NCBI GenBank assembly: GCA_964344785.1
Contig: CAYFOR010000001.1
Coordinates: 22,723 to 86,722, forward strand
From: an uncultured Piscirickettsiaceae bacterium
Lineage (GTDB): Bacteria; Pseudomonadota; Gammaproteobacteria; GCF-002020875
Direction: 5' to 3'
Length of the DNA stretch: 64,000 bases
Shown: one piece after another, positions 1 to 30,469 of the stretch
Layout of the letters: each line of letters starts with the position of its first letter
How positions within the stretch are numbered: position 1 is the first letter of the stretch
Made by a program: the position numbers and the translations under genes
Notes under the pieces: model-generated
What the model was told of the DNA's origin: nothing
The model's input: the letters and a program-made list of their open reading frames with translations, nothing else
The model's database searches: none

Positions 1-957
1 CTCCTTGTGCATGGGGAAATAGAGATAGCGGGTAGACGCCAGCTCGTCCTCACTCATGACGGAGAATTGCCCTCTCTGGCGCCACTTGAGATACTCCGAA
101 CGGTAAAATTCACGGATCTTTGCCAGCAGTGGCTTGGGCCGAACCCCCCGTTTTCCCGGACGTACCCAGTGTGCCACATGAGCAATCGCAAGATCAATGA
201 AACCGCGATGGCTGGATAGCCAGCCCCGAGAGGCCCCACGCTTCCAGTTCTGGAGGATGAAGTCCACCGTTTTCGGTCTCTCCCGAAAGCGGTTGATAAA
301 TGCCTTTGCATCGTCACTGACCTCTGCCTGCGATGCGCGCTTTTCAGCGTATAGCGCATGTCCCATCTCGTTGAACATCCAGCGGTTGGTGGTCCAGTAG
401 GAGCGTTTCGAATGGATCTTCGACTGTCTACCCTGAATAAAGGGAATCCCCATCTTCTGTGCCAATAGCGAAGCAGAGAAGTAGTGGGGAGAGGCCCCGT
501 TGCCACAGAGGATCAGATCGGGCTGGAAGCGCTCAATCACTTCGACAGTAAACTCAAACATCGCCGCCACCACACGACGCGGCACCTCATTGTCTCGTAG
601 CGACGCCTTGCCCCCGGCATTGTCCGGCCAGAGATAGCTGGAGAAGCCGAACGCCCGCCCGATGTCCCGCTCGCCAGCAAGTACGATTCGATTAACCGAA
701 ACCCCGGAGACATGCTCACACTCGGAGATGAGCGCCTCTGTCTCCTTCTTGACCGGTTTTTTCAGAATCTCCGCAGCATGAAAGTCAGGAAGGAAGAAAA
801 AATCCTCTTCTGCCACCATCCCCTGATACTCCTTGCGTGCAGCGACCGGACAGAGTACGGCGATTTTCCAATTTTCCTGCTTCCTGGCATGCTCGAGAAA
901 GGAGAGGTAATACGTACGGCGCAGGCCGTGAGGAAGAAAGAGAACGCGTTTTGACAT
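1..957 (-). CDS. Large polysaccharide-biosynthesis protein; N-terminal ~319 aa only, C-terminus lies beyond the window start. Possibly a KpsC/KpsS-like capsule transferase fold.
   Basis: Hand translation from ATG at 957..955 (MSKRVLFLPHGLRRTYYLSFLEHARKQENWKIAV...ILCGNGASPHYFSASLLAQKMGIPFIQ...) stays open to position 1. It is absent from the ORF track because there is no stop codon inside the window. The track ORFs 54..506, 537..719 and 785..997 are in other frames of the same DNA. Confidence 0.55.
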   Translation of the reverse strand, partial: MSKRVLFLPHGLRRTYYLSFLEHARKQENWKIAVLCPVAARKEYQGMVAEEDFFFLPDFHAAEILKKPVKKETEALISECEHVSGVSVNRIVLAGERDIGRAFGFSSYLWPDNAGGKASLRDNEVPRRVVAAMFEFTVEVIERFQPDLILCGNGASPHYFSASLLAQKMGIPFIQGRQSKIHSKRSYWTTNRWMFNEMGHALYAEKRASQAEVSDDAKAFINRFRERPKTVDFILQNWKRGASRGWLSSHRGFIDLAIAHVAHWVRPGKRGVRPKPLLAKIREFYRSEYLKWRQRGQFSVMSEDELASTRYLYFPMHKE

Positions 958-974
958 AGAGTTTAAAGAGGTGG

Positions 975-1718
975 TTAACGGTCCAATGCACGCTCACCGA
1001 GATATTCGAACGTAGTCAGCTTGCGTACATTATCCTGCTGAACCTCATAGCGCCCTTTCAGGTTTCTTTTCAGAAAATTGACATTCTTCGCCCTACCATC
1101 CACCAAAATGTAGAAATCGTTGGGGGCACTGCTTTCATAGAGGAGGATATCCGCAGAGAGATCTGCACGAAGCCATTGACCACCCTCACCAAAACCGAGA
1201 CCGTCTATCTCTCCCTGTACGCTGGCAGAAGAAGGGCCATCCAGATAGACAAAATTAGGAACGATATTGGGTAGTGAGTCGAACCGGAAACAGAGCTGCC
1301 CACTCAACTCCCGAACAGAGACTGTTGAGTAATGAAAAGTTACAAATTCCTGTAGCTCCTCGGGAACCTTCTTGCTGGTATTCTCCAGCCAATACTGTTC
1401 CGGGTCTACCGTCCAGAGTTTTCCCGGATGGCCCTCTTCACTATTCCTCTTCAGCGCATAGGCCATCAGAATTGAGGAGAAACCCACGCCAAACTCAAGC
1501 ACCACTTGGGGTCGACGGCTACGAATCAGGCGATAGAGATTGGCCAGATCATGATACATGGGACGAAACTCCTCTTCCGCTCCACGCTCCAGATAGGCCA
1601 ATGCTCCCTCATTACGCAGAAATGACTCTGACTCAACAATCAGATGCGGCAGATTGCGTTTTGTCTCCGCATCACGAAAGCGTGTTCGAAGAGAAAAGAG
1701 TTTACCCATTAATCCCAC
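975..1718 (-). CDS. Class I SAM-dependent methyltransferase
   Basis: 247-aa ORF with motif I VVLEFGVGFSS; lies inside the glycan locus on the same strand. Confidence 0.65.
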   Translation of the reverse strand: MGLMGKLFSLRTRFRDAETKRNLPHLIVESESFLRNEGALAYLERGAEEEFRPMYHDLANLYRLIRSRRPQVVLEFGVGFSSILMAYALKRNSEEGHPGKLWTVDPEQYWLENTSKKVPEELQEFVTFHYSTVSVRELSGQLCFRFDSLPNIVPNFVYLDGPSSASVQGEIDGLGFGEGGQWLRADLSADILLYESSAPNDFYILVDGRAKNVNFLKRNLKGRYEVQQDNVRKLTTFEYLGERALDR

Positions 1719-1727
1719 ACTGACCTC

Positions 1728-3644
1728 CTACGAGCCGATCTCAGCGATCACTCTTTCCACAAGACTTGCCGCATCCAGACGGTGGTAACCCAACACCTCA
1801 TCATTGAGACCACAGGCGGGAACCTCTTCTACCCCCCAGCGTACAATCTTTCTGTTCCCGGCGAGACCTGCCGCAGCAAGGTGCGAGGTGAGCATCTCAC
1901 CCATCCCCCCTGTCACATAGTGATCATCCAGAGTAATCACGGTGCCAACCTCACCCAATACATTTTGCAACCACGCAGTGTCGATACGGTTGAGCCAGGG
2001 TTGATTGACCACTTTAAGCCCCACACCATGTTCATCCCGCAGCGTCTGCGCCGCTTTCCACGCCTCACTCAGAAGAACAGAGCCATAGGCAAAGAGCGTG
2101 GCATCCCCCCCTTCAGTCACCTCAACACCTCGTCCCAATTCCACGTTATACGCCTGCGGAAGCTGGAAAGGGACGTGATAGGGGATCGTGATCAGGCGCA
2201 GATAGGTGCTTTCACCGTTCTCTTCTACCGCCCAACGCAGTGCCTGCTTCACCTCACTCTCACAACAGGGCTGGAAGAGAGAGAGGCCCGGTACGGCGGC
2301 CAGCGCCGAGATGTCACGCACCGACTGGTGGGAGTGCCCTGGGCCAGAGGGGAGAACCCCAGCCAGGGACCCGGCATAGATGCTCTTGGTACCTTCGGTG
2401 GCATTGTTGTAGAAGTGCTCGTTCGGGCGTGTGGAGAGGAAGCAGGCGAAGGAGTGCACCACCGGGAGAAAACCCTGCAACGCCATACCACCCGCCTGAG
2501 AAACCATATCCTGCTCGGCAATACCACACTCGATGAAACGGTCAGGGAATGCCTTGGCAAACGGAATGAGGCCACAATCGAGCATCAGGTCAGCATCCAG
2601 TACCAGTAGCTCGGGATACTCTTTACCCAGCGCCAACAGCTCCTCGGCATAGGCGGCAATCAGTTTCTGCGGTTGCTGCGGCACTGCTTTCACAGGTCTT
2701 GGCTTGCCGACCAGGCTCAGCTCCGGCAGCTCCAGCGACTGCAGTTGCCGGTTGGCACTCTCCACCAGCTCTGCCATCGCTTTCTCGTAGTCCTCTTCCG
2801 AGGGGGCACCGCTGTGATAGCCATAGAGTTCGTCTTCCGCCAGTTCACCCGGCTCCATAAAGGAGACACCGCATCCCTTGACGGTATCTGCAACGATCAC
2901 TTTGGGACGGTCAGAAACTTCGGCACAACGCGTCATGGCCGCAGTAAGCGCCTCCAAGTCATTGCCATCACACCGGTCCACATACCAACCGAAGGCAGCA
3001 AACTTCGCCTCCAGATCGCCAAGGTCACTGACACGGGAGACATAGGTATCGGACTGCAGTTTGTTATGGTCAACAATGACAGTGATGTTGTTCACTCCGT
3101 TATTGACGGTGGGGCTGAGAGACTCCCAGAACTGCCCCTCCTGCAACTCCCCATCTCCGGTAAGGACATAGTAGTGACTCTCGTGACCACGCAAACGATC
3201 GGCAATGGCCATACCGCGCGCCTTGGAGATCCCCATACCGAGAGAGCCGGTGTTGGTAACGATGTGATCAGTCTCCACATCAGGGTGCCCCGGGAGGCCA
3301 TCAAGACGACGCAACTGCTGCAGCCCCTCTTCCGGTAACAGGCCGCAACCGATCATTACAGCATAGATACCGGGGACGTCATGCCCTTTGGAGGAGAAGA
3401 AGATATCACGAGGTTCTGCCCCCCCCTCCTGGTTGACCCGGCGCAATACGTTAAGGAAGAGCCAGGAGAAGATATCCATGCTGCTGAAACTGGAACCAAT
3501 ATGGCCAGAACCTGCATAAGAGATCATGGAGAGGGTGTTGATGCGTGACAATGTGGCGAAGAGCCGGGTACGGGCAACGGGGTCGCCATCGTGGCTACGC
3601 ACTGCCTGTAGTTGACTTACGGGGACGAAACGAATCTCGGACAT
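1728..3644 (-). CDS. Transketolase, full length (ThDP-dependent)
   Basis: 638 aa; N-terminal GSGHIGSSFSSMDI and the GDGELQEG ThDP-binding motif; Pyr and C-terminal transketolase domains are present. Confidence 0.85.
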   Translation of the reverse strand: MSEIRFVPVSQLQAVRSHDGDPVARTRLFATLSRINTLSMISYAGSGHIGSSFSSMDIFSWLFLNVLRRVNQEGGAEPRDIFFSSKGHDVPGIYAVMIGCGLLPEEGLQQLRRLDGLPGHPDVETDHIVTNTGSLGMGISKARGMAIADRLRGHESHYYVLTGDGELQEGQFWESLSPTVNNGVNNITVIVDHNKLQSDTYVSRVSDLGDLEAKFAAFGWYVDRCDGNDLEALTAAMTRCAEVSDRPKVIVADTVKGCGVSFMEPGELAEDELYGYHSGAPSEEDYEKAMAELVESANRQLQSLELPELSLVGKPRPVKAVPQQPQKLIAAYAEELLALGKEYPELLVLDADLMLDCGLIPFAKAFPDRFIECGIAEQDMVSQAGGMALQGFLPVVHSFACFLSTRPNEHFYNNATEGTKSIYAGSLAGVLPSGPGHSHQSVRDISALAAVPGLSLFQPCCESEVKQALRWAVEENGESTYLRLITIPYHVPFQLPQAYNVELGRGVEVTEGGDATLFAYGSVLLSEAWKAAQTLRDEHGVGLKVVNQPWLNRIDTAWLQNVLGEVGTVITLDDHYVTGGMGEMLTSHLAAAGLAGNRKIVRWGVEEVPACGLNDEVLGYHRLDAASLVERVIAEIGS

Positions 3645-3677
3645 AGTTCTCAGCTTTTTGTTGGTCGAAAGGTATCT

Positions 3678-5156
3678 TCAGATGGAATCGGGATTCACAA
3701 TCATGTAGACATCTTTCAGGTCGGAATAGATATCGAGTGCCTCGGTACCGGGTTCACGGCTACCGTTGCCTGACTGCTTCACCCCACCGAAAGGCATGTG
3801 TGGTTCCGAACCATAGGTTCCTGCATTCACCACCACAACGCCAGAGTGGGCATTATGGGTAAACTGCATGGCACGGTCGAAGCTACGGGTATGGATAGAG
3901 GCGGTGAGGCCATAGGGGCTGTCATTGGTCATCTCCAATGCCTCCTCGAAGTCACTCACCCGGTAGAGGGTGGCAATGGGGCCGAACAGCTCACAGGTGG
4001 AAATCTCGTCACTGGGTGTAACCCCTTCCACCAGCGTAGGGGCCATGTAGTAGCCATTGGCATGCTCTGGGGTCTCCAGTCGTTTGCCTCCGGCAAGCAG
4101 TGTTGCACCGGCCACGACCGCACGCTCGACCGAGCCGACCATATTATCCAGCTGACGCTGGTTGATTACCGGTCCAAGGTCATCGCCATCGTTTGGCCCA
4201 ATCTTGAGATTGGCAGTCGCTTCTACCAGCATTTTCTTGAAACGGTCGTAGACGGCATCAAAGATGATGATGCGACTTCCTGCTGCACAGCGCTGCCCGG
4301 CATTACTGAAGGCGGAGAGACAGACCCACTTCACCGCATTCTCCAGATCGGCATCATCACAGACCACCAGTGGATTCTTCCCCCCCAGTTCAAGCGAGAC
4401 CTTGGCCAACCGCTTGCCTGCCTGTTCGGCAATCCAGCGCCCCACACCCGTGGAGCCGGTAAAGCTGATCACATCGACCCCTTCGTGTTCAACGATGGGG
4501 GCACCCGCCTCCAGCCCCAACCCCTGGATCACGTTGAGCACCCCTTTCGGTATGCCGACAGCGTGGGCAACCTCGGCAAAGAGCCAAGCCGTAGCAGGCG
4601 TATCCTCTGCCCCCTTGAGCACCACGCCATTACCGCAGATCAGCGCAGGAAACACCTTCCAGGCCACATTGGCAATCGGGGTGTTGGCTGCAATAATGAG
4701 TCCCGCCACACCACAGGGCTGACGGATGGTCATGGCATATTTATTCTCCGCACCGCTGGTGGTGGTGCGGCCATAGAGGCGTTGCCCCTCACCCGCATAG
4801 AAACGGCCCAGGGCAATGGCACCACCGGTCTCTCCAAGCGCCTCCTGATAGCTCTTGCCGGTCTCCAGCGCCACAGTTCGCGCCATCTCTTCCTGGCGAC
4901 CTTCCAGCAGGTTACAGATCTTGTGCAGCAGATTGCCACGCTGCACTGCTGGTGTTTTGGCCCAAGCAGGCTGCGCAGATCGCGCCGCACTTACCGCAGC
5001 ATCAACATCCTCCTTATGGGAGCGTGCGAGATGGGAGATCACCTCTCCACTGTGAGGAGAGTATTTCTCCACCCACTCCCCACAAAGAGCAGGAACCTCT
5101 TCCCCATTGAGCCAGTTTGGAATTTGTTGTGGAAATGGTTGGTGTTCACTTGCCAT
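3678..5156 (-). CDS. NAD(P)-dependent aldehyde dehydrogenase
   Basis: 492 aa; ELGGKNP (catalytic Glu) and GQRCAAGSR (catalytic Cys) motifs. Confidence 0.85.
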   Translation of the reverse strand: MASEHQPFPQQIPNWLNGEEVPALCGEWVEKYSPHSGEVISHLARSHKEDVDAAVSAARSAQPAWAKTPAVQRGNLLHKICNLLEGRQEEMARTVALETGKSYQEALGETGGAIALGRFYAGEGQRLYGRTTTSGAENKYAMTIRQPCGVAGLIIAANTPIANVAWKVFPALICGNGVVLKGAEDTPATAWLFAEVAHAVGIPKGVLNVIQGLGLEAGAPIVEHEGVDVISFTGSTGVGRWIAEQAGKRLAKVSLELGGKNPLVVCDDADLENAVKWVCLSAFSNAGQRCAAGSRIIIFDAVYDRFKKMLVEATANLKIGPNDGDDLGPVINQRQLDNMVGSVERAVVAGATLLAGGKRLETPEHANGYYMAPTLVEGVTPSDEISTCELFGPIATLYRVSDFEEALEMTNDSPYGLTASIHTRSFDRAMQFTHNAHSGVVVVNAGTYGSEPHMPFGGVKQSGNGSREPGTEALDIYSDLKDVYMIVNPDSI

Positions 5157-5170
5157 CTGATTTTAATCCT

Positions 5171-5983
5171 TTAAAGTGCGGTCCAGCCGCCATCGATCAC
5201 CATGTTGGAACCGGTCATGTAGGATGAGGCATCCGACATCAGAAAGACCGCCGCACCGTTGTACTCCGACTCATCCGCCATTCTCCCCATCGGCACACGA
5301 CCACAATAATTCTCCAGAAACTCCTCATCCTGGTGATTGAAGACGCCACCAAAGGAGAGCACGTTGGCCCGAACCCCCTGCCGTCCCCAGTAGGCCGCCA
5401 GATAGCGGGTGAAGTTGATCAGTGCAGACTTGGAGGTCGCATAGGCGACCGGTTTGTAGAAGACTTCCCCTCGCTGGCGACGATATTCGTAGATGGACTG
5501 GTCGGGGGAGACCATGCCGTAGGTGGAGCCGATGTTGACGATGGAACCGCCCCCTGCTTTCGCCATCATTTCACCGAATACCTGACAGGCGAGGAAGATG
5601 CCGGTTACATTCACCTCCATCACCTTGCGGAAAGACTCCTCAGGGTAGCTCTCGAAAGGGCCATTCTCTTCCGCAGGTGCCCCCGGCGGCGAGTCGAGGG
5701 CAGCGTTGTTGATCAGCCCGTAGGGGGTGCCGAGCTTCTCTTTAACTCTCTCTGCCGCCGCCACCAGTGCGCCACGATCGGTAATGTCTGCGCCAACAAA
5801 GAGCACACGCTCCTCCCCCAACGAAACGAACTCTTCTGCCAGCTCACCGATACCGGGAAGATCGATCACTGCCACCTTGGCACCATGCTGCAACAGTGTC
5901 CGGGTAAATTGTCGCCCCAACTGCCCCAGGCCACCGGTTACCACCACCACACGATCCTTGAGATCGAATAACTCTGTACCCAT
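5171..5983 (-). CDS. Short-chain dehydrogenase/reductase (SDR)
   Basis: 270 aa; N-terminal VVVVTGGLGQLG Rossmann motif. Confidence 0.8.
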   Translation of the reverse strand: MGTELFDLKDRVVVVTGGLGQLGRQFTRTLLQHGAKVAVIDLPGIGELAEEFVSLGEERVLFVGADITDRGALVAAAERVKEKLGTPYGLINNAALDSPPGAPAEENGPFESYPEESFRKVMEVNVTGIFLACQVFGEMMAKAGGGSIVNIGSTYGMVSPDQSIYEYRRQRGEVFYKPVAYATSKSALINFTRYLAAYWGRQGVRANVLSFGGVFNHQDEEFLENYCGRVPMGRMADESEYNGAAVFLMSDASSYMTGSNMVIDGGWTAL

Positions 5984-5991
5984 AACGTTCT

Positions 5992-6522
5992 CTATTTCTC
6001 GTTAAACACTGAAACGATGAGGTCGCAAACCTCACGCACCGCGCCTTTGCCACCCAACAGTTGTGTACGGTAGCGACCATACGGGATCACATCCGGGTGA
6101 GAGTCCTGTACCACGATTGGCAGACCCACAACCTCCAGACAGGAGATATCGTTGATGTCATTGCCCATGAATGCGGCCTGCTCAGGCTTCAGCCCGCGCT
6201 GCTCCAACATTTCCAGAAGAACTCCACGCTTCTCATCACACCCCTGAACATAGGGCAGGCCCAACTTTTTACAGCGAGCCCCTACCACGGGATTCACCTC
6301 CTTGGAGATGACACACATCTCGACTCCCAGCTTGCGCAGCTCTGCCAGTCCCATGCCATCCAAGCGAGAACAAGCGACCGCTTCACGCCCGTCTTCCAGT
6401 ACATAGACCCCGTTATCGGTAAAGACTCCATCGAAGTCGAAGGCGATAAAGCGAAGTGTGCGGATACTCTCCTTCAGCCCTTCCGCTATCGGAACGGTAA
6501 AGAGGGGAGAAACCGATCTCAT
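5992..6522 (-). CDS. KdsC-family HAD phosphatase (3-deoxy-ulosonate/nonulosonate-phosphate phosphatase)
   Basis: 176 aa; FDFDGVFTDNGVY and MGNDINDISCL motifs typical of KdsC/YrbI. Its stop overlaps the start of the adjacent NeuB gene. Confidence 0.7.
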   Translation of the reverse strand: MRSVSPLFTVPIAEGLKESIRTLRFIAFDFDGVFTDNGVYVLEDGREAVACSRLDGMGLAELRKLGVEMCVISKEVNPVVGARCKKLGLPYVQGCDEKRGVLLEMLEQRGLKPEQAAFMGNDINDISCLEVVGLPIVVQDSHPDVIPYGRYRTQLLGGKGAVREVCDLIVSVFNEK

Positions 6523-7571
6523 TCGCTCAGGTTTTCAAAGAGGAGATTTTCATCCTCTGCGATCGGTCTCAGTGCCTTGCGTCCGAGAATTGCACCCATT
6601 TCATAAGGTGGCAGACCATCACCCGGGGACTTGATGGCGATATCCTCTTCGGTCAATACATGCCCTTCGGGCAAGGCACGAGCTGCAACCAGCTTCTTGC
6701 CCATCTTGTGCATCGGGGCAAGCTCCGATTCATAGACCGACTTGGCACCACTACCCAGTGCCAATCGGGTCCGGCGCAGATCACGCACCATACGACGCAT
6801 GCCTGGAGGTGCCAGGGAGAAGGCATGATCGGACCCTTTCATGGTACGGTCCAGTGTGAAATGCTTCTCGATGACCCGTGCTCCAAGAACATAGGCCACC
6901 ACACTCATGGCAATACCGTTATCGTGCGATGAGAGGCCGATGGTCGCCTCTGGAAAATCTTGACGAAAACTCTCAATGACTCTCAGATTGAGTTCTTCCC
7001 ATTTGGGTGGATATCCGGCAGTACACTGCAGAATACAGAACTGTTCATTGATGGGCATCACCTCTTCATAGACACGACGCACATCGTCGATGGTTCCCCC
7101 TCCTGTACTCACGATCACGGGCTTGCCAAATGAGGCGACATGCTTGATCAGTGGCAGATTTTTCAGGTCTCCGGAGGCGATCTTGTAGAGTGGCATCTCC
7201 AGCTCTTCCAGAAAATCTGCACTCTGAATATCAAAGGGTGTGGAGAACATCGTCAGCCCCAACTCCTTTGCATACCCCTGCAGCTCTACATACTCATCAT
7301 GCCCCAGTTCCAGCGCCTCACGATGCTCACCATAGGTCGGGGCAAAAGCACTATGGCTGTTATAGGTTTGCCCAAACATCTCCTTGGTAAACAGAGAGCG
7401 GTTATTCCGTTTCTGCAGTTTGACCGCGTCAGCACCACATTCCTTGGCGGAGTCGAAAAGCTTCTTGGCAAGCTCGACACTACCCTGGTGGTTATGCCCA
7501 ATTTCTGCGATGACATAACAGTCGCTCTCATCATCGACCCGCTTTCCGTCAATCTCTAGTCCTCTAGCCAT
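6519..7571 (-). CDS. N-acetylneuraminate (nonulosonate) synthase family protein, NeuB/PseI/LegI-like, with C-terminal SAF domain (paralogue 1)
   Basis: 350 aa; VIAEIGHNHQGS, TIGLSSHD and VIEKHFTLDR motifs; SAF domain at the C-terminus. Confidence 0.85.
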   Translation of the reverse strand: MARGLEIDGKRVDDESDCYVIAEIGHNHQGSVELAKKLFDSAKECGADAVKLQKRNNRSLFTKEMFGQTYNSHSAFAPTYGEHREALELGHDEYVELQGYAKELGLTMFSTPFDIQSADFLEELEMPLYKIASGDLKNLPLIKHVASFGKPVIVSTGGGTIDDVRRVYEEVMPINEQFCILQCTAGYPPKWEELNLRVIESFRQDFPEATIGLSSHDNGIAMSVVAYVLGARVIEKHFTLDRTMKGSDHAFSLAPPGMRRMVRDLRRTRLALGSGAKSVYESELAPMHKMGKKLVAARALPEGHVLTEEDIAIKSPGDGLPPYEMGAILGRKALRPIAEDENLLFENLSE

Positions 7572-7644
7572 TTCACTTCCCTTGTTGAGCGTCGAAATTC
7601 GACGTGTCTACTATTTAAAGATAAATTGATCCGTACCCAGTGCC

Positions 7645-8352
7645 CTACTTCTTGCGCGAGAGGATAAACTCTGTCAGTTCGATATCCCATTCGGTATCTA
7701 TGCTGACAAACTCCCCTTCCAGCACAAGAGCACCGGTCTTCCGCCCCTTCATTTTTCCCTGCTCCATCACACACTCACGGGTCAGTGCATAGCAGACCCC
7801 ATTGCGATGATAGACCGGCTTAAGCTGCTGACGGGCGACGATCTCGGCCCCCTTGGGATCGTAGTAATCCAGCTGATCCTCTTCCCCAACCACTAGCTGT
7901 TTCAACGGATGCCCCTTCGAGTCGGTCTCGGACAGTGTCCAGACCGAATCAAGATCTTCCTCCACCAGCTTTCGAATGGTAGCCTCCACCTGCTCCGGCT
8001 CTCGCAGCGGTGCTGTGGGCTGAAGAAGAACCGCAATATCGTAGCGCACACCATCGATCCGTTCACACTCCTGCAGCGCATGCTGCAGAACCGGAATATC
8101 GGCAATACGATCCCCTGCCAGGTCATCCGGGCGCATGAAAGGGGCCGCCAGCCCCGCTTCTGCTGCCACCCGTGCAATCTCTGCATGGTCTGTAGAGATC
8201 ACCGCACGATCGATCAACGGTACTTGACGCACAACATCCCCCACCAGCGCTACCATCGGCCGTCCACCGATCTTGCGCAGGTTCTTCAGCGGAATCCCCT
8301 TGCTGCCACCACGCGCCTGACAAACTGCCAGTACCCTTTTCCCTTCGATCAT
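7645..8352 (-). CDS. CMP-nonulosonate synthetase (acylneuraminate cytidylyltransferase family)
   Basis: 235 aa; ARGGSKGIPLKN glycine-rich loop of the NeuA/KdsB fold. Confidence 0.8.
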   Translation of the reverse strand: MIEGKRVLAVCQARGGSKGIPLKNLRKIGGRPMVALVGDVVRQVPLIDRAVISTDHAEIARVAAEAGLAAPFMRPDDLAGDRIADIPVLQHALQECERIDGVRYDIAVLLQPTAPLREPEQVEATIRKLVEEDLDSVWTLSETDSKGHPLKQLVVGEEDQLDYYDPKGAEIVARQQLKPVYHRNGVCYALTRECVMEQGKMKGRKTGALVLEGEFVSIDTEWDIELTEFILSRKK

Positions 8353-8366
8353 CCCTGTTTCTCCAG

Positions 8367-8996
8367 CTATACCATCCGTTCCATCAATTCCGGCAGGCCG
8401 CTCATCCCATCAATGAGATTGTGCGGCGGCTGCTGAAACGGATTCTCTTCGTTATCGATACCAACAAAGTGGCACCCCACCTCTTCGGCAGCGGCACGAT
8501 CGGGTTCACCATCACCTACCATCAACACCTCTTCACGCTTTACATGACACGCTGCCATGATGGCATTGAGGTTTTCACTCTTTCCCTGAGGCGCGCCATA
8601 GATACCATCAAACCAGTGCCCCATCTGTCGCAGATGAATCAACTCCGTGAGGGGGCCGGTTGGAGTGGCCGAGTTGACGTAGAGGCGCTTGCCCGCTCCA
8701 CTGAGGGCACGTAACGTCCTCTCTGTTCCAACAATTTCGGGGGCCTCGGTGATCTTTTCCTCACAGAGCCTGGTATAGCGCTCCGCCAGTTGTGCTGCAT
8801 CGGCTTTTTCGGAAAGCGCCGCTGCAAACTGATCAAAGACCCAGTACCGATCTCCTGCATCTTCACGCCCGAGTACCGATTCCATCAAACCCACACCGCC
8901 TCCAAACGCCTGTGCGACCTCAAAGAAGCTCTGGCGTTTGATGTGGTTGGAATCTACCAGGGTCCCGTCAAAATCGAACACCACACAGCATATCAC
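8367..8996 (-). CDS. HAD-superfamily hydrolase (phosphatase-like)
   Basis: 209 aa; VVFDFDGTLVDS motif I. Confidence 0.65.
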   Translation of the reverse strand: MICCVVFDFDGTLVDSNHIKRQSFFEVAQAFGGGVGLMESVLGREDAGDRYWVFDQFAAALSEKADAAQLAERYTRLCEEKITEAPEIVGTERTLRALSGAGKRLYVNSATPTGPLTELIHLRQMGHWFDGIYGAPQGKSENLNAIMAACHVKREEVLMVGDGEPDRAAAEEVGCHFVGIDNEENPFQQPPHNLIDGMSGLPELMERMV

Positions 8997-9010
8997 CGCT
9001 GACAGACCTG

Positions 9011-10540
9011 CTACTCTGCATCCATCATCTCGAAGCGCCCCCAGTGTTCCACCACCGTCTTGCGCTCCTCGCGTTCCATTTCATTGATACGCCGGTCATT
9101 ATAGGTGGAGTCGTTGTTGAAATGAGTCGTGGAAACCTCTTCAAAGACACACCCTTCCTCGGTCCAGAACCGGTGCCACACGCCAGGTTGTACCAGTGCA
9201 GTTTCTCCTGCATGGAGGGTGCGGCGATGTCCATCAACCTCGGACTCCAGCACTCCGTAGAGCACCTGGAAGGTCTCTTCCTTGCGCTGATGGAAGTGAA
9301 CGGGATGCTTCTGACCGGGAAGCTGGACGATGATCTTCTTGCAGTATTCGCGATTGATGCAGTTGATGATCAACGCACCGACCTCACGGAAATTCTCCAT
9401 ACCGTAGTGGTGGGAGAATTCGATCTGGAAATCGCTGTTCAGTTCGATACGGGCCTCATTGAGCAGCGCCTTCACCTCATGCACCGCATCCTTGAGGACC
9501 ATGTAGTCAGGCACTTCAGGCGTCTCAATCTGATCAATCATCACAGAGGCATCCTTGGGCATATCCGCCTTGCAGGCCACGCCTTTCTGCCAATGCCCAC
9601 TCTCCAACTGCCCCTCGTTATAGGGCATGGCAAAATAGACATCATCACGGCTCAGTACGGCCCCTTTCTTGACCGCTTTCTTCAGGTAGACACCACGGCG
9701 CAAACTGTCGATGGACTCTTTTTCCGCTTCCGGTATTCCGCGTGGTGCCTGTTCACCACAAAGCTTCTTGGCATAGAGGCAGGCCTCAATCCATCGATCC
9801 ACCTGCCCGGGCGTCGAAGAGTAGGCATTGAGTTTGATCTCGTCCGTCACCACCCCCACATGACGCTCATACATCCGTGCTCCCTTGGCTACCGCCAACT
9901 GCCCGGGCAATACATTATCCGGATCTTCATGGGTGGACCAGCCAATCGTGTGTTTGCGGTAACGACGACGCAGAATGTCGATCTGACTGAGATGGAACTC
10001 CTCGTCCGGAATGGGGTAGATCGAAACACAATGCATGATGGCGTGGGCAACGCCACGGTGCTCCATGAAACTCACCACATTATCGACATCACTCACCTCC
10101 AGTCCACCCGTTGAGACGATCACCGGCATACAGGCCGAGGCCACCTTTTCCAGCAACGGCCAATCCTTGGCCGAACAACTGGCAATCTTGAGGAAGTCGA
10201 ATCCCATATCGGTAATCACATCGACCGACTCTTCATCGAAAGGGGTACACATAGCGTACATCCCCTCCTCTCGGACTGCATCCAAAAGAACCTGATACTG
10301 TTCGCGATTGAGGCGAGTGGAGAGGAAGCGCTCGATATGTTTTGCCTTGCTTCCCTGCTGGTGGTCTGGGTGGATAAAGGTATCCAACTGACGGAACTGA
10401 AACTTCATCACCCCACGAATGCCATGTTTTCGTGCCACCTCGCCAATCTGGCGTACGATCTTCAGGCCGTGATCCACGTCTCCCTGATGGTTGTTGGCCA
10501 TGTCGAAGACAAACAGATCGGAAAAATCGAATTCTTTCAT
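9011..10540 (-). CDS. NeuB-family nonulosonate synthase homologue fused to a C-terminal cupin domain (paralogue 2)
   Basis: 509 aa; N-terminal FDMANNHQGD...IGWSTHEDP with NeuB-like TIM-barrel signatures; the C-terminal ~120 aa (PGQKHPVHFHQRKEETFQVLYG...GVWHRFWTEEG) is a cupin fold instead of SAF. Confidence 0.7.
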   Translation of the reverse strand: MKEFDFSDLFVFDMANNHQGDVDHGLKIVRQIGEVARKHGIRGVMKFQFRQLDTFIHPDHQQGSKAKHIERFLSTRLNREQYQVLLDAVREEGMYAMCTPFDEESVDVITDMGFDFLKIASCSAKDWPLLEKVASACMPVIVSTGGLEVSDVDNVVSFMEHRGVAHAIMHCVSIYPIPDEEFHLSQIDILRRRYRKHTIGWSTHEDPDNVLPGQLAVAKGARMYERHVGVVTDEIKLNAYSSTPGQVDRWIEACLYAKKLCGEQAPRGIPEAEKESIDSLRRGVYLKKAVKKGAVLSRDDVYFAMPYNEGQLESGHWQKGVACKADMPKDASVMIDQIETPEVPDYMVLKDAVHEVKALLNEARIELNSDFQIEFSHHYGMENFREVGALIINCINREYCKKIIVQLPGQKHPVHFHQRKEETFQVLYGVLESEVDGHRRTLHAGETALVQPGVWHRFWTEEGCVFEEVSTTHFNNDSTYNDRRINEMEREERKTVVEHWGRFEMMDAE

Positions 10541-10581
10541 AACAAAGTCTCTTCTATTTAGTTTCTGAAGCAGCAGCCAAC

Positions 10582-11682
10582 CTATCCCAGGTTAAGCGCC
10601 TCGGGTACAAACCCCTTGCTGTAATCAATATGGACGGTTGCACCTTCCGCTGCCGACTTGTGAGCGGCTGCCACCACCATCATGGTCTCCAGTCCTCTCT
10701 CCAGGGAGATGGGAGAGGAGGCCGGGCCATCCACCAGTGCAGCCTCGATATGGCGCAACTCCTGAATAAAATCATCCGGCCGTGTCTTGCTGATTTCCGT
10801 CTCGGAGATCTCACCACAATCCAGGGCATGAACGACGGTGTCGATTCCCGGCTTATTGCCGCAATACCACTCCAGATAGCCATCGCTGCCCTGAACACGT
10901 GCCCATTTGCGGGTAGGACGAGTCACCACATCCTGGACCACACGCCCCACCATCCCGTTCTCGGTACGAACATGCATCAGACAGAGCTTGTCATAATCGG
11001 CACCACCTTCCTGGACATATTCCAGTTCAGCAGAGACCTCGACAATACGCCCGGCACCTGCCTGATGGGCATAATATTGCCATAGATTGGCGGCATGCGA
11101 GTGCTCACCACAGGCTCCCCCTCCCTTCTTCCAGAAACCGAGATAGGTATCCGATGGGCCATCCAGCCACGGATGTGCAGCGAAGATCCCGCCCCAGAAC
11201 TCACGAAACTCCACATCCATGGTATCGATGGTACCCACAGCCTGGGCAGCCAGCAGTGCACCAACGCGCTGGGCCGACTTGCCCACCACATGGTCATAGC
11301 CGGTGAAGACCGCCACACCGGCCTCGCCCGCCCGCTCCAGCAGTTCCTGACCACCGGCGAGATCGGGGCCGCATAGTGGTTTCTCCACCAAAATGACGCC
11401 GGGCTTCTCTTCCAGTGACTTCAATGCAAGGTCCATGTGACTATCGGGAGGCGTCCCAATGACCACCATGTCATATCCACCACTGGGAACCTCGTCGCAG
11501 GAGTAGAGTCCGATCCCTTCATCCCAGGCACCGTAGCGGCTGGGATAGATCTCATCCCTGGTACGTGCCAGAGCGGCAGAATCGATATCACAGATATCCA
11601 CATCCCACCCCATGGTACGGGACGCATTTGCCAGGTGATTGCCGATTGATCCGGCACCATAAACCTTAACTCGGTAAGCCAT
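10582..11682 (-). CDS. Gfo/Idh/MocA-family NAD(P)-dependent oxidoreductase
   Basis: 366 aa; N-terminal VKVYGAGSIGNHLA Rossmann motif and Gfo/Idh/MocA C-terminal domain. Confidence 0.75.
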   Translation of the reverse strand: MAYRVKVYGAGSIGNHLANASRTMGWDVDICDIDSAALARTRDEIYPSRYGAWDEGIGLYSCDEVPSGGYDMVVIGTPPDSHMDLALKSLEEKPGVILVEKPLCGPDLAGGQELLERAGEAGVAVFTGYDHVVGKSAQRVGALLAAQAVGTIDTMDVEFREFWGGIFAAHPWLDGPSDTYLGFWKKGGGACGEHSHAANLWQYYAHQAGAGRIVEVSAELEYVQEGGADYDKLCLMHVRTENGMVGRVVQDVVTRPTRKWARVQGSDGYLEWYCGNKPGIDTVVHALDCGEISETEISKTRPDDFIQELRHIEAALVDGPASSPISLERGLETMMVVAAAHKSAAEGATVHIDYSKGFVPEALNLG

Positions 11683-11764
11683 GTTGTAAAGCCTCGCTCT
11701 CTTCAGTTTTCAATAATTCTGAAATGGACCGTTCCACTGCCCCTTGCAGCATCATCCAGACCAT

Positions 11765-12430
11765 CTACTTAATCAGATAGAATTTCCCGGTGAATTCGTC
11801 ACGTTTGATTTCATTGATCCGGTCTCCCATGTATTCGTCAATCGCCTTCTGTGCACCTGGAAACTTGAGGTGTTCGCGTGTCGCCATGTATTCATCAAAC
11901 ATCACCACTCCACCCTCGATCACTCGCGGATAGAGCGTATCGAGCGCCACCTTGTAGGAGTCATAGAGATCCACATCGAGGTGCAGAACTGCAATGTCAC
12001 GTCCACGATATTTGTGCAGACTGTCTTCAAGAAAACCTTGAACCAGCGTCACCTGCGTATTGATCCAGTACTCATCCAGGCCGGCCTCTTCCAGCATCGC
12101 CAGGACACCGGGCAAGCTGGTCTCATTCCACTCTCCCTTTTGTGGGTTGCGGATACTCTTGTCGTGCTCGGAAGGCTCAGGGAACCCTTCAAAAGAGTCA
12201 AAGCCCCAGATATGACGCTGCTCCCTGTCTTCCTTTACCAGATAGCTGAACATGGCAATACTGCTCCCCTTGCCAACGCCACACTCTACAATATCCCCTT
12301 GCAGATGAGCGACCTGGTCCAGCACTCTTCTGAAATAGAGAAGGCGGGATGCATTGGGATACCCCAACGCCGGAACGGGCATCGCCTCGATCTTGCCACC
12401 GTTCTCAGCATACATATTCAATGGTTTCAT
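11765..12430 (-). CDS. TylF/MycF-family (macrocin-O-methyltransferase-like) SAM-dependent methyltransferase
   Basis: 221 aa; IVECGVGKGSS and the LDVDLYDSY motif characteristic of the TylF family. Confidence 0.75.
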   Translation of the reverse strand: MKPLNMYAENGGKIEAMPVPALGYPNASRLLYFRRVLDQVAHLQGDIVECGVGKGSSIAMFSYLVKEDREQRHIWGFDSFEGFPEPSEHDKSIRNPQKGEWNETSLPGVLAMLEEAGLDEYWINTQVTLVQGFLEDSLHKYRGRDIAVLHLDVDLYDSYKVALDTLYPRVIEGGVVMFDEYMATREHLKFPGAQKAIDEYMGDRINEIKRDEFTGKFYLIK

Positions 12431-22090: not shown

Positions 22091-22099
22091 ACTCCAGCT

Positions 22100-24812: not shown

Positions 24813-24918
24813 GATAGTTTCTCAACGAATTCCAAGGATAGAGTCACAAAAGGCCATATTCGGATCACTTCACTGCAAGTTGACCGGTAGTCACTACCGT
24901 AGTGCAACCGCAGGCTCT

Positions 24919-25971: not shown

Positions 25972-25984
25972 TTTTCTCTCTTAT

Positions 25985-26962: not shown

Positions 26963-26975
26963 TGACTGGGTTCCG

Positions 26976-28494: not shown

Positions 28495-28533
28495 AGCACG
28501 CCCTCACCCCTAGAACACAGCATCAAATCTGGC

Positions 28534-29562: not shown

Positions 29563-29718
29563 TTAACTACCACCCAATAATTACCAACACCTACCAATTT
29601 AGGCATTTTTTGTTTTACACAGAACCGCGTTACCAAACACTTTTCCAAATCCGTAGCTCAATATCGGCTCTTCATTTACCCTCTTCCTGTTTCCTGTTCC
29701 CTGCAACCACGCCAGAGG
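29563..29718 (-). promoter_or_regulatory. AT-rich intergenic spacer, probably an internal promoter / 5' leader for the pseB-proximal half of the locus
   Basis: A 156-nt non-coding gap, the only large one inside the locus, AT-rich with a short direct repeat ttcctgtt x2. Confidence 0.35.
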
Positions 29719-30411: not shown

Positions 30412-30469
30412 TGGCTTGTATCCTTCTTGTTTCAGTCTATAAGGTAGAGCAGTCTTTCTCAGGGAATGG

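What the first reader, a model, noticed from the sequence alone, without database searches (positions are those of the whole stretch)
1728..5983. Full-length transketolase plus aldehyde dehydrogenase and SDR embedded in the nonulosonate locus
A complete 638-aa transketolase is unusual inside a surface-glycan operon. It sits with an ALDH and an SDR, directly upstream of the KdsC-phosphatase/NeuB/NeuA trio.

This suggests synthesis of a non-standard aldose (or 2-carbon ketol/glycolyl donor) that feeds the adjacent NeuB-type condensation. Alternatively it could build an unusual N-acyl group such as glycolyl or glyceroyl on the nonulosonate.
Basis: inference. Interest (0 to 1): 0.6.

Follow-up and report, generated by a model that had tools for sequence, protein, structure and literature searches.

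The report
Conserved transketolase cassette in sialic-like pathway
The three genes are real, and they form the constant core of a gene unit found in bacteria from more than a dozen phyla, which most likely makes an undescribed, doubly acidic, sialic-acid-like surface sugar using a transketolase-like enzyme in a role not reported before.

Summary
Observation confirmed. Three tightly packed minus-strand genes encode a 638-aa transketolase-family protein (1728-3644), an aldehyde dehydrogenase (3678-5156) and a classical SDR (5171-5983). They lie downstream of the cytidylyltransferase, NeuB and KdsC-like phosphatase genes in one operon-like run.

The transketolase is not a housekeeping type. It scores below every NCBIfam transketolase cutoff. 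It keeps all ThDP and catalytic residues, but all four sugar-phosphate-binding positions are replaced, consistently across 84 relatives.

The block is not a local oddity. In 63 loci from many phyla, relatives of the transketolase sit next to the SDR (54), ALDH (49), cytidylyltransferase (48) and NeuB (47). The usual order is NeuB-[phosphatase]-SDR-ALDH-cytidylyltransferase-TK, often followed by a KpsS-like transferase. All nine contexts sampled from the ALDH or SDR side also carry the transketolase.

Best mechanism (inferred, about 0.45): NeuB makes a nonulosonate phosphate and the phosphatase frees the tail. The SDR oxidises the penultimate carbon to a ketol. The TK-like enzyme removes two carbons and leaves an aldehyde. 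The ALDH, or a class-III aminotransferase in variant loci, converts that aldehyde to a carboxylate or an amine. The product is then CMP-activated.

I found no published description.

The parts
1728..3644 (-). Transketolase-like ThDP enzyme (638 aa). Proposed to cleave a two-carbon ketol from the tail of an oxidised nonulosonate.
   Evidence: Three TK Pfam domains, but below all NCBIfam TK and DXS cutoffs. It is 28.7% identical to human TKT and 27.3% to E. coli TktA. ThDP, metal and catalytic residues are invariant in 84 relatives. The four phosphate-binding positions and the Asp424 equivalent are replaced.
3678..5156 (-). NAD(P)-dependent aldehyde dehydrogenase (492 aa). Proposed to oxidise the new terminal aldehyde to a carboxylate.
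   Evidence: Aldedh domain, E 1.5e-153. The nearest NCBIfam models are alpha-ketoglutaric semialdehyde and 2,5-dioxovalerate dehydrogenases, both below cutoff. E256 and C290 are present. Orthologues at 69-85% identity are abundant, and 4 of 4 sampled contexts carry the whole unit.
5171..5983 (-). Classical SDR (270 aa). Proposed to oxidise the penultimate carbon of the exocyclic polyol tail to a ketone.
   Evidence: adh_short_C2 domain. The nearest solved relatives include gluconate 5-dehydrogenase and galactitol, mannitol, sorbitol and xylitol dehydrogenases. The YxxxK motif is present. 5 of 5 sampled orthologue contexts carry ALDH and TK.
5992..6522 (-). KdsC-like (HAD-IIIA, YrbI-type) ulosonate-phosphate phosphatase (176 aa).
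   Evidence: TIGR01670 scores 106.8 bits against a cutoff of 106.95. The KdsC and Kdn-9-P phosphatase models hit below cutoff. The DFDGV motif is present. A KdsC-type or HAD_2 phosphatase is present in 31 of 63 related loci.
6519..7571 (-). NeuB-family nonulosonate synthase (350 aa, NeuB + SAF domains).
   Evidence: Pfam NeuB 264 bits plus SAF. It is below the NeuB/LegI and PseI equivalog cutoffs. The catalytic and metal residues E23, H216, E235 and H237 are present, and Asp135 stands where N. meningitidis NeuB has Glu134. Median identity to partners in related loci is 59%.
7645..8352 (-). CMP-ulosonate synthetase-type cytidylyltransferase (235 aa).
   Evidence: CTP_transf_3 domain. The PseF model scores 122.6 bits against a cutoff of 205.7. 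A homologue is present in 48 of 63 related loci, usually between ALDH and TK.
975..1718 (-). Possible class-I methyltransferase-like protein (247 aa). Local to this locus and not part of the conserved unit.
   Evidence: Weak Methyltransf_24 hit, 21.3 bits against a cutoff of 26.3. tblastn found it only on copies of the same contig.
1..954 (-). 5' part of a KpsS/KpsC-like (Capsule_synth) putative ulosonate glycosyltransferase. It runs off the window.
   Evidence: The full-length copy on the identical contig (L001 8749-10245, 498 aa) scores 24.4 bits on Capsule_synth, cutoff 20. Related Capsule_synth-like genes follow the TK in 22 of 63 loci and in L085, L087, L090, L091 and L092.

Best explanation
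The SDR, TK-like enzyme and ALDH form a tailoring cassette inside a self-contained pathway to a CMP-activated, chain-shortened dicarboxylic ulosonic acid (a 3-deoxy-2-ulosaric acid).

Shown:
- The genes form a conserved unit: NeuB, a phosphatase, SDR, ALDH, a cytidylyltransferase, TK and often a KpsS-like transferase.
- The TK-like enzyme keeps its ThDP chemistry but has lost the sugar-phosphate site.

Inferred order of reactions:
1. NeuB condenses PEP with a hexose phosphate, such as mannose 6-phosphate, to give a nonulosonate 9-phosphate.
2. The KdsC-like phosphatase frees the C9 hydroxyl.
3. The SDR oxidises C8-OH. This gives a terminal ketol, HOCH2-CO-CHOH-, which is the motif a transketolase takes as donor.
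4. The TK-like enzyme cleaves the C7-C8 bond. It carries off C8-C9 as dihydroxyethyl-ThDP, whose fate is unknown, and leaves a C7 aldehyde.
5. The ALDH oxidises the aldehyde to a second carboxylate. In variant loci a class-III aminotransferase makes a terminal amine instead.
6. The cytidylyltransferase activates the product, and the KpsS-like enzyme transfers it to a surface glycan.
For: Conserved unit:
- Among 63 loci with at least 6 kb upstream of a TK relative, SDR is within 8 kb in 54, ALDH in 49, a cytidylyltransferase in 48, NeuB in 47, a phosphatase in 31 and a KpsS-like transferase in 22.
- The commonest order is NeuB>[KdsC]>SDR>ALDH>CMPt>TK, in 28 loci. The loci span more than a dozen phyla.
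- Controls that did not start from the TK: 4 of 4 ALDH orthologue contexts and 5 of 5 SDR orthologue contexts carry the TK.

TK active site:
- The positions aligning with human H37, H77, R101, H110, N185, K244, H258 and E366 are invariant in 84 relatives, and the D155 position is conserved in 83 of 84.
- The phosphate-binding positions are changed. R318 is deleted, S345 is Asp in 83 of 84, H416 is Leu in 81 of 84, and R474 is Ser, Asn or Thr in 82 of 84. D424 is Pro in 84 of 84 (active-site residue list from PMC8016368).
- This fits a non-phosphorylated donor, that is, one acting after the phosphatase step.

Other enzymes:
- The SDR's nearest solved relatives with a known substrate oxidise the carbon next to a terminal CH2OH of polyols or aldonates.
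- The ALDH's nearest curated families act on semialdehydes of 2-keto acids.
- ALDH is replaced or joined by a class-III aminotransferase in L040, L044, L077, L050 and in a Streptomyces locus. This fits a shared aldehyde intermediate.
- The trio persists where the nonulosonate comes from a NeuC-type epimerase. This argues for action after NeuB.
- Enolase-superfamily and DHDPS-family genes, families known for work on acid sugars, are inserted in some units. This fits a keto-deoxy-aldarate-like product.

Stereochemistry (my own derivation): the tail of 8-keto-Kdn has the D-fructose-like 3S,4R configuration that transketolases accept.
Against: - Nothing is shown biochemically. The regiochemistry of the SDR rests on distant homologues, all below curated cutoffs.
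- The TK gene is usually last in the unit, not between SDR and ALDH.
- About 10% of TK relatives (6 of 63) have none of the partner genes within 8 kb; two of them (L041, L080) were annotated and lie in non-glycan contexts.
- The invariant Asp at the former phosphate site is not what one would design for a carboxylate-bearing donor.
- No gene in the unit explains the fate of the two-carbon fragment.
- A few loci have neither ALDH nor the aminotransferase nearby.
- The predicted product from a Kdn-type precursor would be the L-arabino heptulosaric acid. That does not match the one natural heptulosaric acid known, D-lyxo Dha. No natural glycan with such a sugar is known to me.
Confidence: 0.45

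Rival explanations
1. Terminal oxidation without shortening. The SDR oxidises the primary C9-OH to an aldehyde, and the ALDH (or the aminotransferase) converts it to a C9 carboxylate (or amine). This parallels the Kdo8N logic. The TK-like enzyme then has some other, unidentified job, such as extending the aldehyde by two carbons or recycling a by-product.
For: The ALDH/aminotransferase alternation and the phosphatase fit this as well as they fit the best explanation. The oxidation-then-transamination precedent in Shewanella Kdo8N is from my own knowledge.
Against: It gives no role to the TK, which is present in 9 of 9 contexts sampled independently of it. The SDR's nearest characterised relatives oxidise secondary, penultimate hydroxyls rather than primary alcohols. 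If the TK used the aldehyde as acceptor, it would compete with the ALDH for the same substrate.
Confidence: 0.2
2. Upstream supply, which is the first reader's main idea in modified form. The SDR and the TK-like enzyme make a short, non-phosphorylated aldehyde or aldehydo-acid that NeuB condenses with PEP. One example: gluconate to 5-keto-gluconate, cleaved to a four-carbon uronate, giving a heptulosaric acid directly.
For: Gluconate 5-dehydrogenase is among the SDR's nearest characterised relatives. Loss of the phosphate site in the TK is compatible with a non-phosphorylated ketose acid donor. 5-Keto-D-gluconate has the 3S,4R donor configuration (my own derivation).
Against: It leaves the ALDH without a productive substrate and does not explain the swap between ALDH and aminotransferase. 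KdsC-type phosphatases act on ulosonate phosphates (family knowledge), which implies a phosphorylated NeuB product. The trio also occurs with a NeuC-type epimerase that already supplies a hexosamine to NeuB. All characterised members of the NeuB family use six-carbon aldoses (own knowledge).
Confidence: 0.12
3. Acyl-donor route. The TK makes a glycolaldehyde unit, the ALDH oxidises it to glycolate (or a glyceroyl unit), and this is attached to an amino group of the nonulosonate.
For: TK-like E1 enzymes that deliver glycolyl units to carrier proteins are known in tetrahydroisoquinoline antibiotic pathways (own knowledge). The window does encode amino-nonulosonate genes elsewhere.
Against: The conserved unit has no aminotransferase for the sugar (PseC-like genes in only 10 of 63 loci). 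It has no ligase, acyltransferase, ACP or lipoyl protein. The SDR would have no role. The window's ATP-grasp, 2-hydroxyacid dehydrogenase and GNAT genes belong to a separate sub-cluster 13-23 kb away.
Confidence: 0.05
4. This is the genome's ordinary pentose-phosphate or Calvin-cycle transketolase and sits here by chance.
For: It has full-length TK architecture and an intact ThDP site. I could not scan the rest of this genome for another tkt.
Against: It falls below all curated TK cutoffs. All four phosphate-binding residues are lost. Synteny with NeuB, SDR and ALDH is conserved across phyla. The family occurs in cyanobacteria such as Moorena and Cyanosarcina, which need a canonical Calvin-cycle TK (own knowledge).
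Confidence: 0.02

Closest known systems
Canonical transketolase (EC 2.2.1.1; human TKT, PDB 4KXU; E. coli TktA)
   Same: Same three-domain architecture over the full length (E 1e-55 to human TKT). The ThDP- and metal-binding residues and the catalytic His, Lys and Glu residues are identical. Ketol cleavage or transfer chemistry is therefore expected.
   Different: Only 27-29% identity and below all equivalog cutoffs. The four residues that hold the substrate phosphate, and the Asp that reads the acceptor's C2-OH, are all replaced, and consistently so across the family. It is encoded within a glycan unit rather than with central-metabolism genes.
Kdn / sialic acid 9-phosphate route (NeuB/NANS-type synthase, C0-type HAD phosphatase, CMP-synthetase), for example in Bacteroides thetaiotaomicron and animals
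   Same: A NeuB-family synthase, a KdsC/Kdn-9-P-phosphatase-like enzyme and a CTP_transf_3 cytidylyltransferase lie side by side. NeuB1 has Asp where N. meningitidis NeuB has Glu134. PMC8208679 reports that change for archaeal and eukaryotic synthases.
   Different: All three proteins fall below the curated cutoffs for NeuB, PseI, KdsC, Kdn-9-P phosphatase and PseF. The unit also carries the SDR-TK-ALDH trio, which has no counterpart in the known route.
Kdo8N formation in Shewanella (KdnB oxidises the terminal alcohol of Kdo, KdnA transaminates the aldehyde); own knowledge
   Same: Tailoring of the far end of a finished ulosonic acid through an aldehyde intermediate. The aminotransferase-containing variants of this unit follow the same final step.
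   Different: Different enzyme families: an SDR and a class-III aminotransferase here. No ThDP enzyme, chain shortening or carboxylate product is involved in Kdo8N.
Transketolases that act on non-phosphorylated ketoses in catabolism, for example 6-deoxy-6-sulfofructose transketolase of the sulfo-TK pathway; own knowledge
   Same: A precedent for a TK-fold enzyme with a remodelled distal pocket that shortens a non-phosphorylated ketose by two carbons and leaves an aldehyde.
   Different: Those enzymes are catabolic and split into two subunits. Their donor is a sulfosugar. Relationship to this family was not tested.
[quoted passage not shown]
   Same: The only known natural seven-carbon dicarboxylic ulosonic acid. 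Its activated form and biosynthesis were described as unidentified in the 2012 review PMC3355719, and it does occur in a bacterium (PMC4019464). The product predicted here has the same composition, C7H10O8.
   Different: A Kdn-type precursor would give the L-arabino isomer, not D-lyxo (my own derivation). No carrier of this unit is known to contain Dha. Acinetobacter was not among the loci found.
Glycolyl-ACP-forming TK-like E1 systems of quinocarcin and naphthyridinomycin biosynthesis (QncN/L, NapB/D); own knowledge
   Same: A ThDP enzyme of the TK/E1 type diverted from central metabolism into a biosynthetic cluster to handle a two-carbon ketol unit.
   Different: Those systems need lipoyl and ACP partners and feed an NRPS. 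No such partner is present in the unit.

Membership tests
Transketolase (EC 2.2.1.1) | Three-domain architecture: PP-binding, pyrimidine-binding and C-terminal domains | tested here: met
   Transketolase_N, Transket_pyr and Transketolase_C all score above Pfam cutoffs. Full-length alignment to human TKT.
Transketolase (EC 2.2.1.1) | ThDP/metal motif (GDG...N), the activating Glu, and the catalytic His and Lys residues | tested here: met
   H48, H88, R112, H120, N194, K256, H277, E377 and H439 are invariant in 84 relatives, and D164 is conserved in 83 of 84.
Transketolase (EC 2.2.1.1) | Sugar-phosphate binding residues (human R318, S345, H416, R474) and the Asp that reads the acceptor's C2-OH (D424) | tested here: not met
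   The five positions are a deletion, Asp356, Leu427, Thr/Ser486 and Pro435, consistently across the family. The residue list is from PMC8016368. Their role in phosphate binding is from my own knowledge.
Transketolase (EC 2.2.1.1) | Curated whole-protein score (NCBIfam equivalogs) | tested here: not met
   NF004559 373.5 against 488; NF004556 269.5 against 575; TIGR00232 143.4 against 682; NF004558 137.3 against 788.
1-deoxy-D-xylulose-5-phosphate synthase | Curated whole-protein score | tested here: not met
   TIGR00204 136.3 against 465.95; NF003933 121.4 against 395.
Aldehyde dehydrogenase superfamily | Aldedh domain with the catalytic Cys and general-base Glu | tested here: met
   512 bits. 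ELGGKN with E256 and FSNAGQRC with C290.
Alpha-ketoglutaric semialdehyde dehydrogenase (nearest named ALDH family) | Curated equivalog score | tested here: not met
   NF042993 449.5 against 770; NF052305 435.4 against 750.
Classical short-chain dehydrogenase/reductase | Gly-rich cofactor motif, NNAA motif, and the Ser-Tyr-Lys catalytic residues | tested here: met
   TGGLGQLG, NNAA and Y181-x3-K185 are readable in the sequence. adh_short_C2 scores 150.5 bits. No named subfamily cutoff is reached.
NeuB-family nonulosonate synthase | NeuB TIM-barrel plus SAF domain, with the metal-binding His and catalytic acid residues | tested here: met
   Pfam NeuB 264 bits and SAF 46 bits. E23, D135, H216, E235 and H237 align with N. 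meningitidis E25, E134, H215, E234 and H236.
N-acetylneuraminate/legionaminate synthase or pseudaminate synthase (named specificities) | Curated equivalog score | tested here: not met
   TIGR03569 303.5 against 399.65; TIGR03586 246.3 against 340.25.
KdsC / YrbI-type ulosonate-phosphate phosphatase (HAD-IIIA) | DxDGV nucleophile motif and the family score | tested here: inconclusive
   The motif D29-F-D31-G-V is present. TIGR01670 scores 106.8 against 106.95, just under. KdsC scores 117.2 against 208 and Kdn-9-P phosphatase 74.1 against 180.
Nonulosonic acid biosynthesis (nab) cluster | A NeuB-type synthase together with a CMP-ulosonate synthetase in one locus | tested here: met
   NeuB at 6519-7571 and the cytidylyltransferase at 7645-8352 are adjacent. 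The same pairing occurs in most related loci.
Glycolyl-carrier TK/E1 systems (QncN/L type) | A lipoyl or ACP partner encoded with the ThDP enzyme | tested here: not met
   No PP-binding or lipoyl domain was found in any annotated gene of the window island or of the conserved unit.
Proposed tail-shortening pathway (this report) | C8 oxidation by the SDR, C7-C8 cleavage by the TK-like enzyme, and a C7 dicarboxylate product | not testable with these tools
   Needs enzyme assays and sugar analysis. Only the genetic and sequence logic is available.

The most novel reading that the evidence does not exclude
A ThDP-dependent, transketolase-derived enzyme acts as a biosynthetic carbon-carbon lyase on a finished nine-carbon sialic-acid-like sugar. 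Together with an SDR and an ALDH it makes a CMP-activated seven-carbon dicarboxylic 'ulosaric' acid. This would be a new class of bacterial surface sugar, present across more than a dozen phyla including candidate-phyla-radiation bacteria. It would also be the first genetic route to a Dha-like sugar.
Probability: 0.4. Interest if true: 0.85.

Novelty: new variant of a known kind. Interest (0 to 1): 0.72.

Why it matters
Nonulosonic acids shape how bacteria present themselves to hosts, phages and the immune system. Their known tailoring is limited to N-acyl, O-acyl, methyl and epimer variants.

A conserved cassette that changes the carbon skeleton itself would add a new kind of sugar to that repertoire. 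It would also add a new reaction type to the transketolase superfamily.

It occurs in soil Acidobacteriota, cyanobacteria, methanotrophs, sulfur oxidisers, Patescibacteria and a cultured Streptomyces. An unrecognised acidic sugar may therefore be common in environmental cell envelopes.

It also offers concrete candidate enzymes for an old question, namely how heptulosaric acids such as Dha are made and activated. The hypothesis can be tested with six soluble enzymes and commercially available Kdn or Neu5Ac.

Tried and rejected
- **Literature.** Searches combining transketolase with NeuB, nonulosonic acid, sialic acid synthase or ulosonic acid found nothing relevant. The single hit, on C. butyricum, mentions the two topics in unrelated sections.
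- **Other heptulosaric acids.** A search for 'ulosaric' returned 78 papers; among the 40 listed, all but one Acinetobacter LPS paper concern plant or algal material.
- **E. coli TktA numbering.** Mapping the E. coli TktA residues through a large MAFFT alignment misplaced E. coli by a few columns around R358, S385, H461 and D469. I therefore relied on the closer human TKT alignment and checked the three columns on either side.
- **Dha as the product.** I considered this and rejected it as a firm claim. With a NeuB-type condensation on a natural hexose followed by loss of two carbons, the D-lyxo configuration would need altrose or idose.
- **Keto-acid decarboxylase role.** I considered that the TK-like enzyme decarboxylates the 2-keto acid. 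I rejected it because the conserved cytidylyltransferase needs the intact 2-ulosonate.
- **Second tkt in the genome.** I could not test this.
- **NeuB1 substrate.** I tried to infer it from N. meningitidis residues. This gave only a weak hint, the Asp at position 134.
- **Plasmid collection.** The search gave one true family member, in a Streptomyces replicon with no annotation. The other hits were ordinary or split transketolases at 29-44% identity.
- **Promoter and terminator scan.** It found nothing above the shuffled background.

Full report
**1. What is at the coordinates**

The interval 1728-5983 holds three minus-strand ORFs of 638, 492 and 270 aa. Pfam assigns them as follows:
- the first to the three transketolase domains (E 4e-31, 3e-26, 1e-14);
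- the second to Aldedh (E 1.5e-153);
- the third to the classical SDR family (E 8e-44).

The catalytic motifs of the ALDH (E256, C290) and the SDR (Y181-x3-K185) are intact. On the same strand, just before them in the direction of transcription, lie three more genes:
- a CTP_transf_3 cytidylyltransferase (7645-8352);
- a NeuB+SAF synthase (6519-7571);
- a KdsC-like HAD phosphatase (5992-6522).

Gaps between the genes from NeuB to the gene after the TK are -4, 8, 14, 33 and 9 nt. A promoter and terminator scan of 1-12000 found no more sites than shuffled sequence gives, and none in the intergenic gaps on the coding strand.

The one amendment is that the block is transcriptionally downstream of the NeuA/NeuB/phosphatase trio, not upstream.

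**2. Setting**

The block lies at the end of a minus-strand glycan island of about 38 kb, which runs from about 38.3 kb to beyond the window start. The island contains:
- three NeuB homologues (6519, 9011, 24919) and two cytidylyltransferases;
- PseB-, PseC- and GNAT-like genes;
- two ATP-grasp enzymes and a 2-hydroxyacid dehydrogenase;
- ManC, a sugar dehydrogenase and an ABC exporter.

uvrC, pgsA and cysC lie just beyond the island, and prfC follows on the other strand. The RF3 protein falls in a 90%-identity cluster with marine Gammaproteobacteria MAGs, including Candidatus Thiopontia autotrophica. An identical copy of the region on a shorter metagenome contig (L001) shows what follows the methyltransferase-like gene after the TK. 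There is a 498-aa Capsule_synth (KpsS/KpsC-like) protein, whose 5' part is window 1-954, and then an enolase-superfamily protein.

**3. The transketolase is not a housekeeping type**

It scores below every curated transketolase model. The best is NF004559 at 373.5 bits against a cutoff of 488, and the bacterial tkt model TIGR00232 scores 143 against 682. It is also below the DXS models. It is 28.7% identical to human TKT and 27.3% to E. coli TktA.

I aligned it and 83 relatives with human TKT. The active-site residue list came from PMC8016368. The results were as follows.
- Every cofactor and catalytic position is invariant or nearly so. These are human H37, H77, R101, H110, D155, N185, K244, H258 and E366; only the D155 position has a single exception, in 1 of 84 sequences.
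- Q428 is His, as in bacterial and yeast enzymes.
- The four residues that hold the substrate phosphate are all replaced (their role is from my own knowledge). R318 is deleted, S345 is Asp in 83 of 84, H416 is Leu in 81 of 84, and R474 is Ser, Asn or Thr in 82 of 84.
- D424, which reads the C2 hydroxyl of the acceptor, is Pro in 84 of 84.

The enzyme should still perform ketol chemistry on ThDP, but on something other than a sugar phosphate.

**4. The block is the core of a conserved unit**

A protein search found more than 100 relatives at 56-72% identity and over 800 bits, from cyanobacteria, Gemmatimonadota, Acidobacteriota, Gammaproteobacteria, Bacillota and others.

I scanned one genome per species with family-specific peptide patterns. 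The best 80 loci span more than a dozen phyla, including Patescibacteria.

Using the window's proteins as tblastn queries, I examined the 63 loci that have at least 6 kb upstream of the TK relative. Within 8 kb of the TK relative:

| Partner gene | Loci (of 63) |
|---|---|
| SDR | 54 |
| ALDH | 49 |
| Cytidylyltransferase | 48 |
| NeuB | 47 |
| KdsC-type or HAD_2 phosphatase | 31 |
| KpsS-like transferase | 22 |

The commonest order is NeuB>[KdsC]>SDR>ALDH>cytidylyltransferase>TK, in 28 loci. Median identities to the window proteins are 59% for NeuB, 46% for SDR, 60% for ALDH and 54% for TK.

Because that sample was anchored on the TK, I also sampled from the other side. Four ALDH orthologues and five SDR orthologues on long contigs were looked up, and all nine sit in the same unit with the TK.

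Six of the 63 loci have none of the partner genes within 8 kb. The two I annotated, a Polyangiaceae MAG (L041) and a Thermoleophilaceae MAG (L080), are in unrelated contexts.

**5. Informative variants**

(a) In several Acidobacteriota and one cyanobacterial MAG the order is SDR>TK>ALDH. It is followed by a NeuC-type UDP-GlcNAc 2-epimerase and the cytidylyltransferase, and preceded by a 2-hydroxyacid dehydrogenase. The trio is thus retained when the nonulosonate precursor is made by the non-phosphorylated route.

(b) In L040, L044 and L077 a class-III aminotransferase stands where the ALDH usually is, and L050 has both.

(c) A cultured strain, Streptomyces sp. NBC_01237, carries NeuB-SDR-TK, an RmlD-like reductase, a HAD and a class-III aminotransferase on a 1.6-Mb replicon. 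The genes lie beside hydroxyphenylglycine-type genes and SARP and LuxR regulators.

(d) Some units have a DHDPS-family gene after the cytidylyltransferase (L090, L092). Others have an enolase-superfamily gene plus a ketopantoate-reductase-like gene between the ALDH and the cytidylyltransferase (L094). The window's own contig has an enolase-superfamily gene two genes after the TK.

**6. Mechanism**

The facts to explain are these:
- an obligatory pairing of SDR with TK;
- ALDH interchangeable with an omega-type aminotransferase;
- a phosphatase of the ulosonate-phosphate type;
- a TK without a phosphate site;
- a cytidylyltransferase and a Kdo-type transferase at the end of the unit.

The SDR's closest solved relatives with a known substrate are gluconate 5-dehydrogenase and galactitol, mannitol, sorbitol and xylitol dehydrogenases (the NCBIfam neighbours agree). 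All of these oxidise the carbon next to a terminal CH2OH. Applied to the exocyclic glycerol-like tail of a nonulosonate, that reaction produces HOCH2-CO-CHOH-, which is the donor motif of a transketolase.

Cleavage by the TK-like enzyme would remove C8-C9 and leave a C7 aldehyde. The ALDH's nearest curated families act on semialdehydes of 2-keto acids. It would convert the aldehyde to a carboxylate, and the aminotransferase of the variant loci would convert it to an amine.

For a Kdn-type sugar, the tail of the 8-keto intermediate has the D-fructose-like 3S,4R configuration (my own derivation). The ring oxygen at C6 replaces the hydroxyl that Asp424 normally reads, which could explain why that Asp has been lost.

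Every conserved gene then has a place in the sequence: NeuB, phosphatase, SDR, TK, ALDH, cytidylyltransferase, transferase. The enolase-superfamily and DHDPS-family genes in some units belong to families that work next to carboxylates of acid sugars. That would suit a product with a new carboxylate at C7.

None of this is shown biochemically, and I rate it at about 0.45.

**7. Rivals**

- *Terminal oxidation of C9 without shortening.* This explains the ALDH/aminotransferase pair but gives the ever-present TK no role.
- *Upstream supply of a short aldehyde to NeuB.* An example is cleavage of 5-keto-gluconate. It fits the SDR and the phosphate-free TK. It leaves the ALDH and the ulosonate-type phosphatase unexplained, and it conflicts with the NeuC-type variant.
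- *An N-glycolyl or N-glyceroyl donor role.* The conserved unit lacks every partner this would need.
- *A chance housekeeping gene.* This is contradicted by sections 3 and 4.

**8. Comparison with what is known**

The unit is a nonulosonate (nab-type) cluster by its NeuB plus cytidylyltransferase pair. None of its proteins reaches a curated cutoff for a named specificity. I know of no described pathway that contains the SDR-TK-ALDH trio, and none appeared in the full-text searches.

The nearest analogies are these:
- Kdo8N formation, which tailors the terminus of an ulosonate through an aldehyde;
- the sulfosugar transketolase, a TK that shortens a non-phosphorylated ketose;
- Dha, the only known natural heptulosaric acid. 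Its biosynthesis and activated form were reported as unknown in the 2012 review PMC3355719, and it occurs in Acinetobacter haemolyticus LPS.

The predicted product shares Dha's composition. From a mannose-derived precursor, however, it would be a different stereoisomer.

**9. Verdict**

What is present is a widespread and apparently undescribed variant of nonulosonate biosynthesis. Its signature enzyme is a transketolase relative that has lost its phosphate site. The conserved unit itself is firmly established. The tail-shortening chemistry is a specific, testable inference.

Noticed in passing
window 8367-11682 (minus strand); L048 11994-16100: A second possible ulosonate module sits next to the first. 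It consists of a 509-aa fusion of NeuB with a C-terminal cupin resembling D-lyxose/D-mannose isomerase (9011-10540), a HAD_2 phosphatase (8367-8996) and a GFO/IDH/MocA oxidoreductase (10582-11682). The same three genes, in the same order and at 35-50% identity, follow the TK and a cytidylyltransferase in a Saccharibacteria MAG. The cupin might supply mannose or mannose phosphate to the fused synthase.
   Followed up: partly
window 18695-31675 (minus strand): A third NeuB (24919-25971) sits with PseB-like, PseC-like, GNAT, PIG-L deacetylase, two ATP-grasp enzymes, a D-2-hydroxyacid dehydrogenase, a metallophosphoesterase, a methyltransferase and a second cytidylyltransferase. This looks like an amino-nonulosonate pathway with N-acyl tailoring.
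   Followed up: no
window 12427-13929, 15729-17354, 25985-27082 (minus strand): Three long ORFs inside the glycan island (500, 541 and 365 aa) have no Pfam match, even at E 0.01. They may be unrecognised glycosyltransferases or polymerases.
   Followed up: no
L001 10242-10961 (just beyond window position 1); L090 12941-13843; L092 12896-13807; L094 10332-12513: Genes from families known for aldarate and acid-sugar metabolism are inserted in or beside the conserved unit in several genomes. They include a mandelate racemase/enolase superfamily member, a DHDPS/NanA-family member and an ApbA-type reductase. They may further modify a dicarboxylic product.
   Followed up: partly
L089 (Streptomyces sp. 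NBC_01237, NZ_CP108509.1 806967-832856): A cultured Streptomyces carries NeuB-SDR-TK, an RmlD-like reductase, a HAD and a class-III aminotransferase, with no cytidylyltransferase detected. Next to them are a glyoxalase-fold protein, an FMN-dependent dehydrogenase, a class I/II aminotransferase, and LuxR and SARP regulators. This hints that the same chemistry feeds a secondary metabolite. The record has no annotation in the plasmid collection.
   Followed up: partly
L041, L043, L053, L067, L072, L080: About one in ten TK-family members has none of the partner genes within 8 kb. In L041 the neighbours are a cytochrome c peroxidase and a VgrG-like protein. In L080 they are an acyl-CoA dehydrogenase-like protein and a flavoprotein. 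Either their partners lie elsewhere or the family has a second role.
   Followed up: partly
window 13981-15783 / 15729-17354 and 20344-21462 / 21239-22090: Mechanically called ORFs overlap by 55 and 224 nt. The true start codons of 13981-15783 and 20344-21462 are therefore probably further downstream than listed.
   Followed up: no
window 2001-6000: G+C is 0.567-0.577 across the TK/ALDH/SDR block, against 0.53 in the flanking 2-kb bins. The difference is small and was not analysed further.
   Followed up: no
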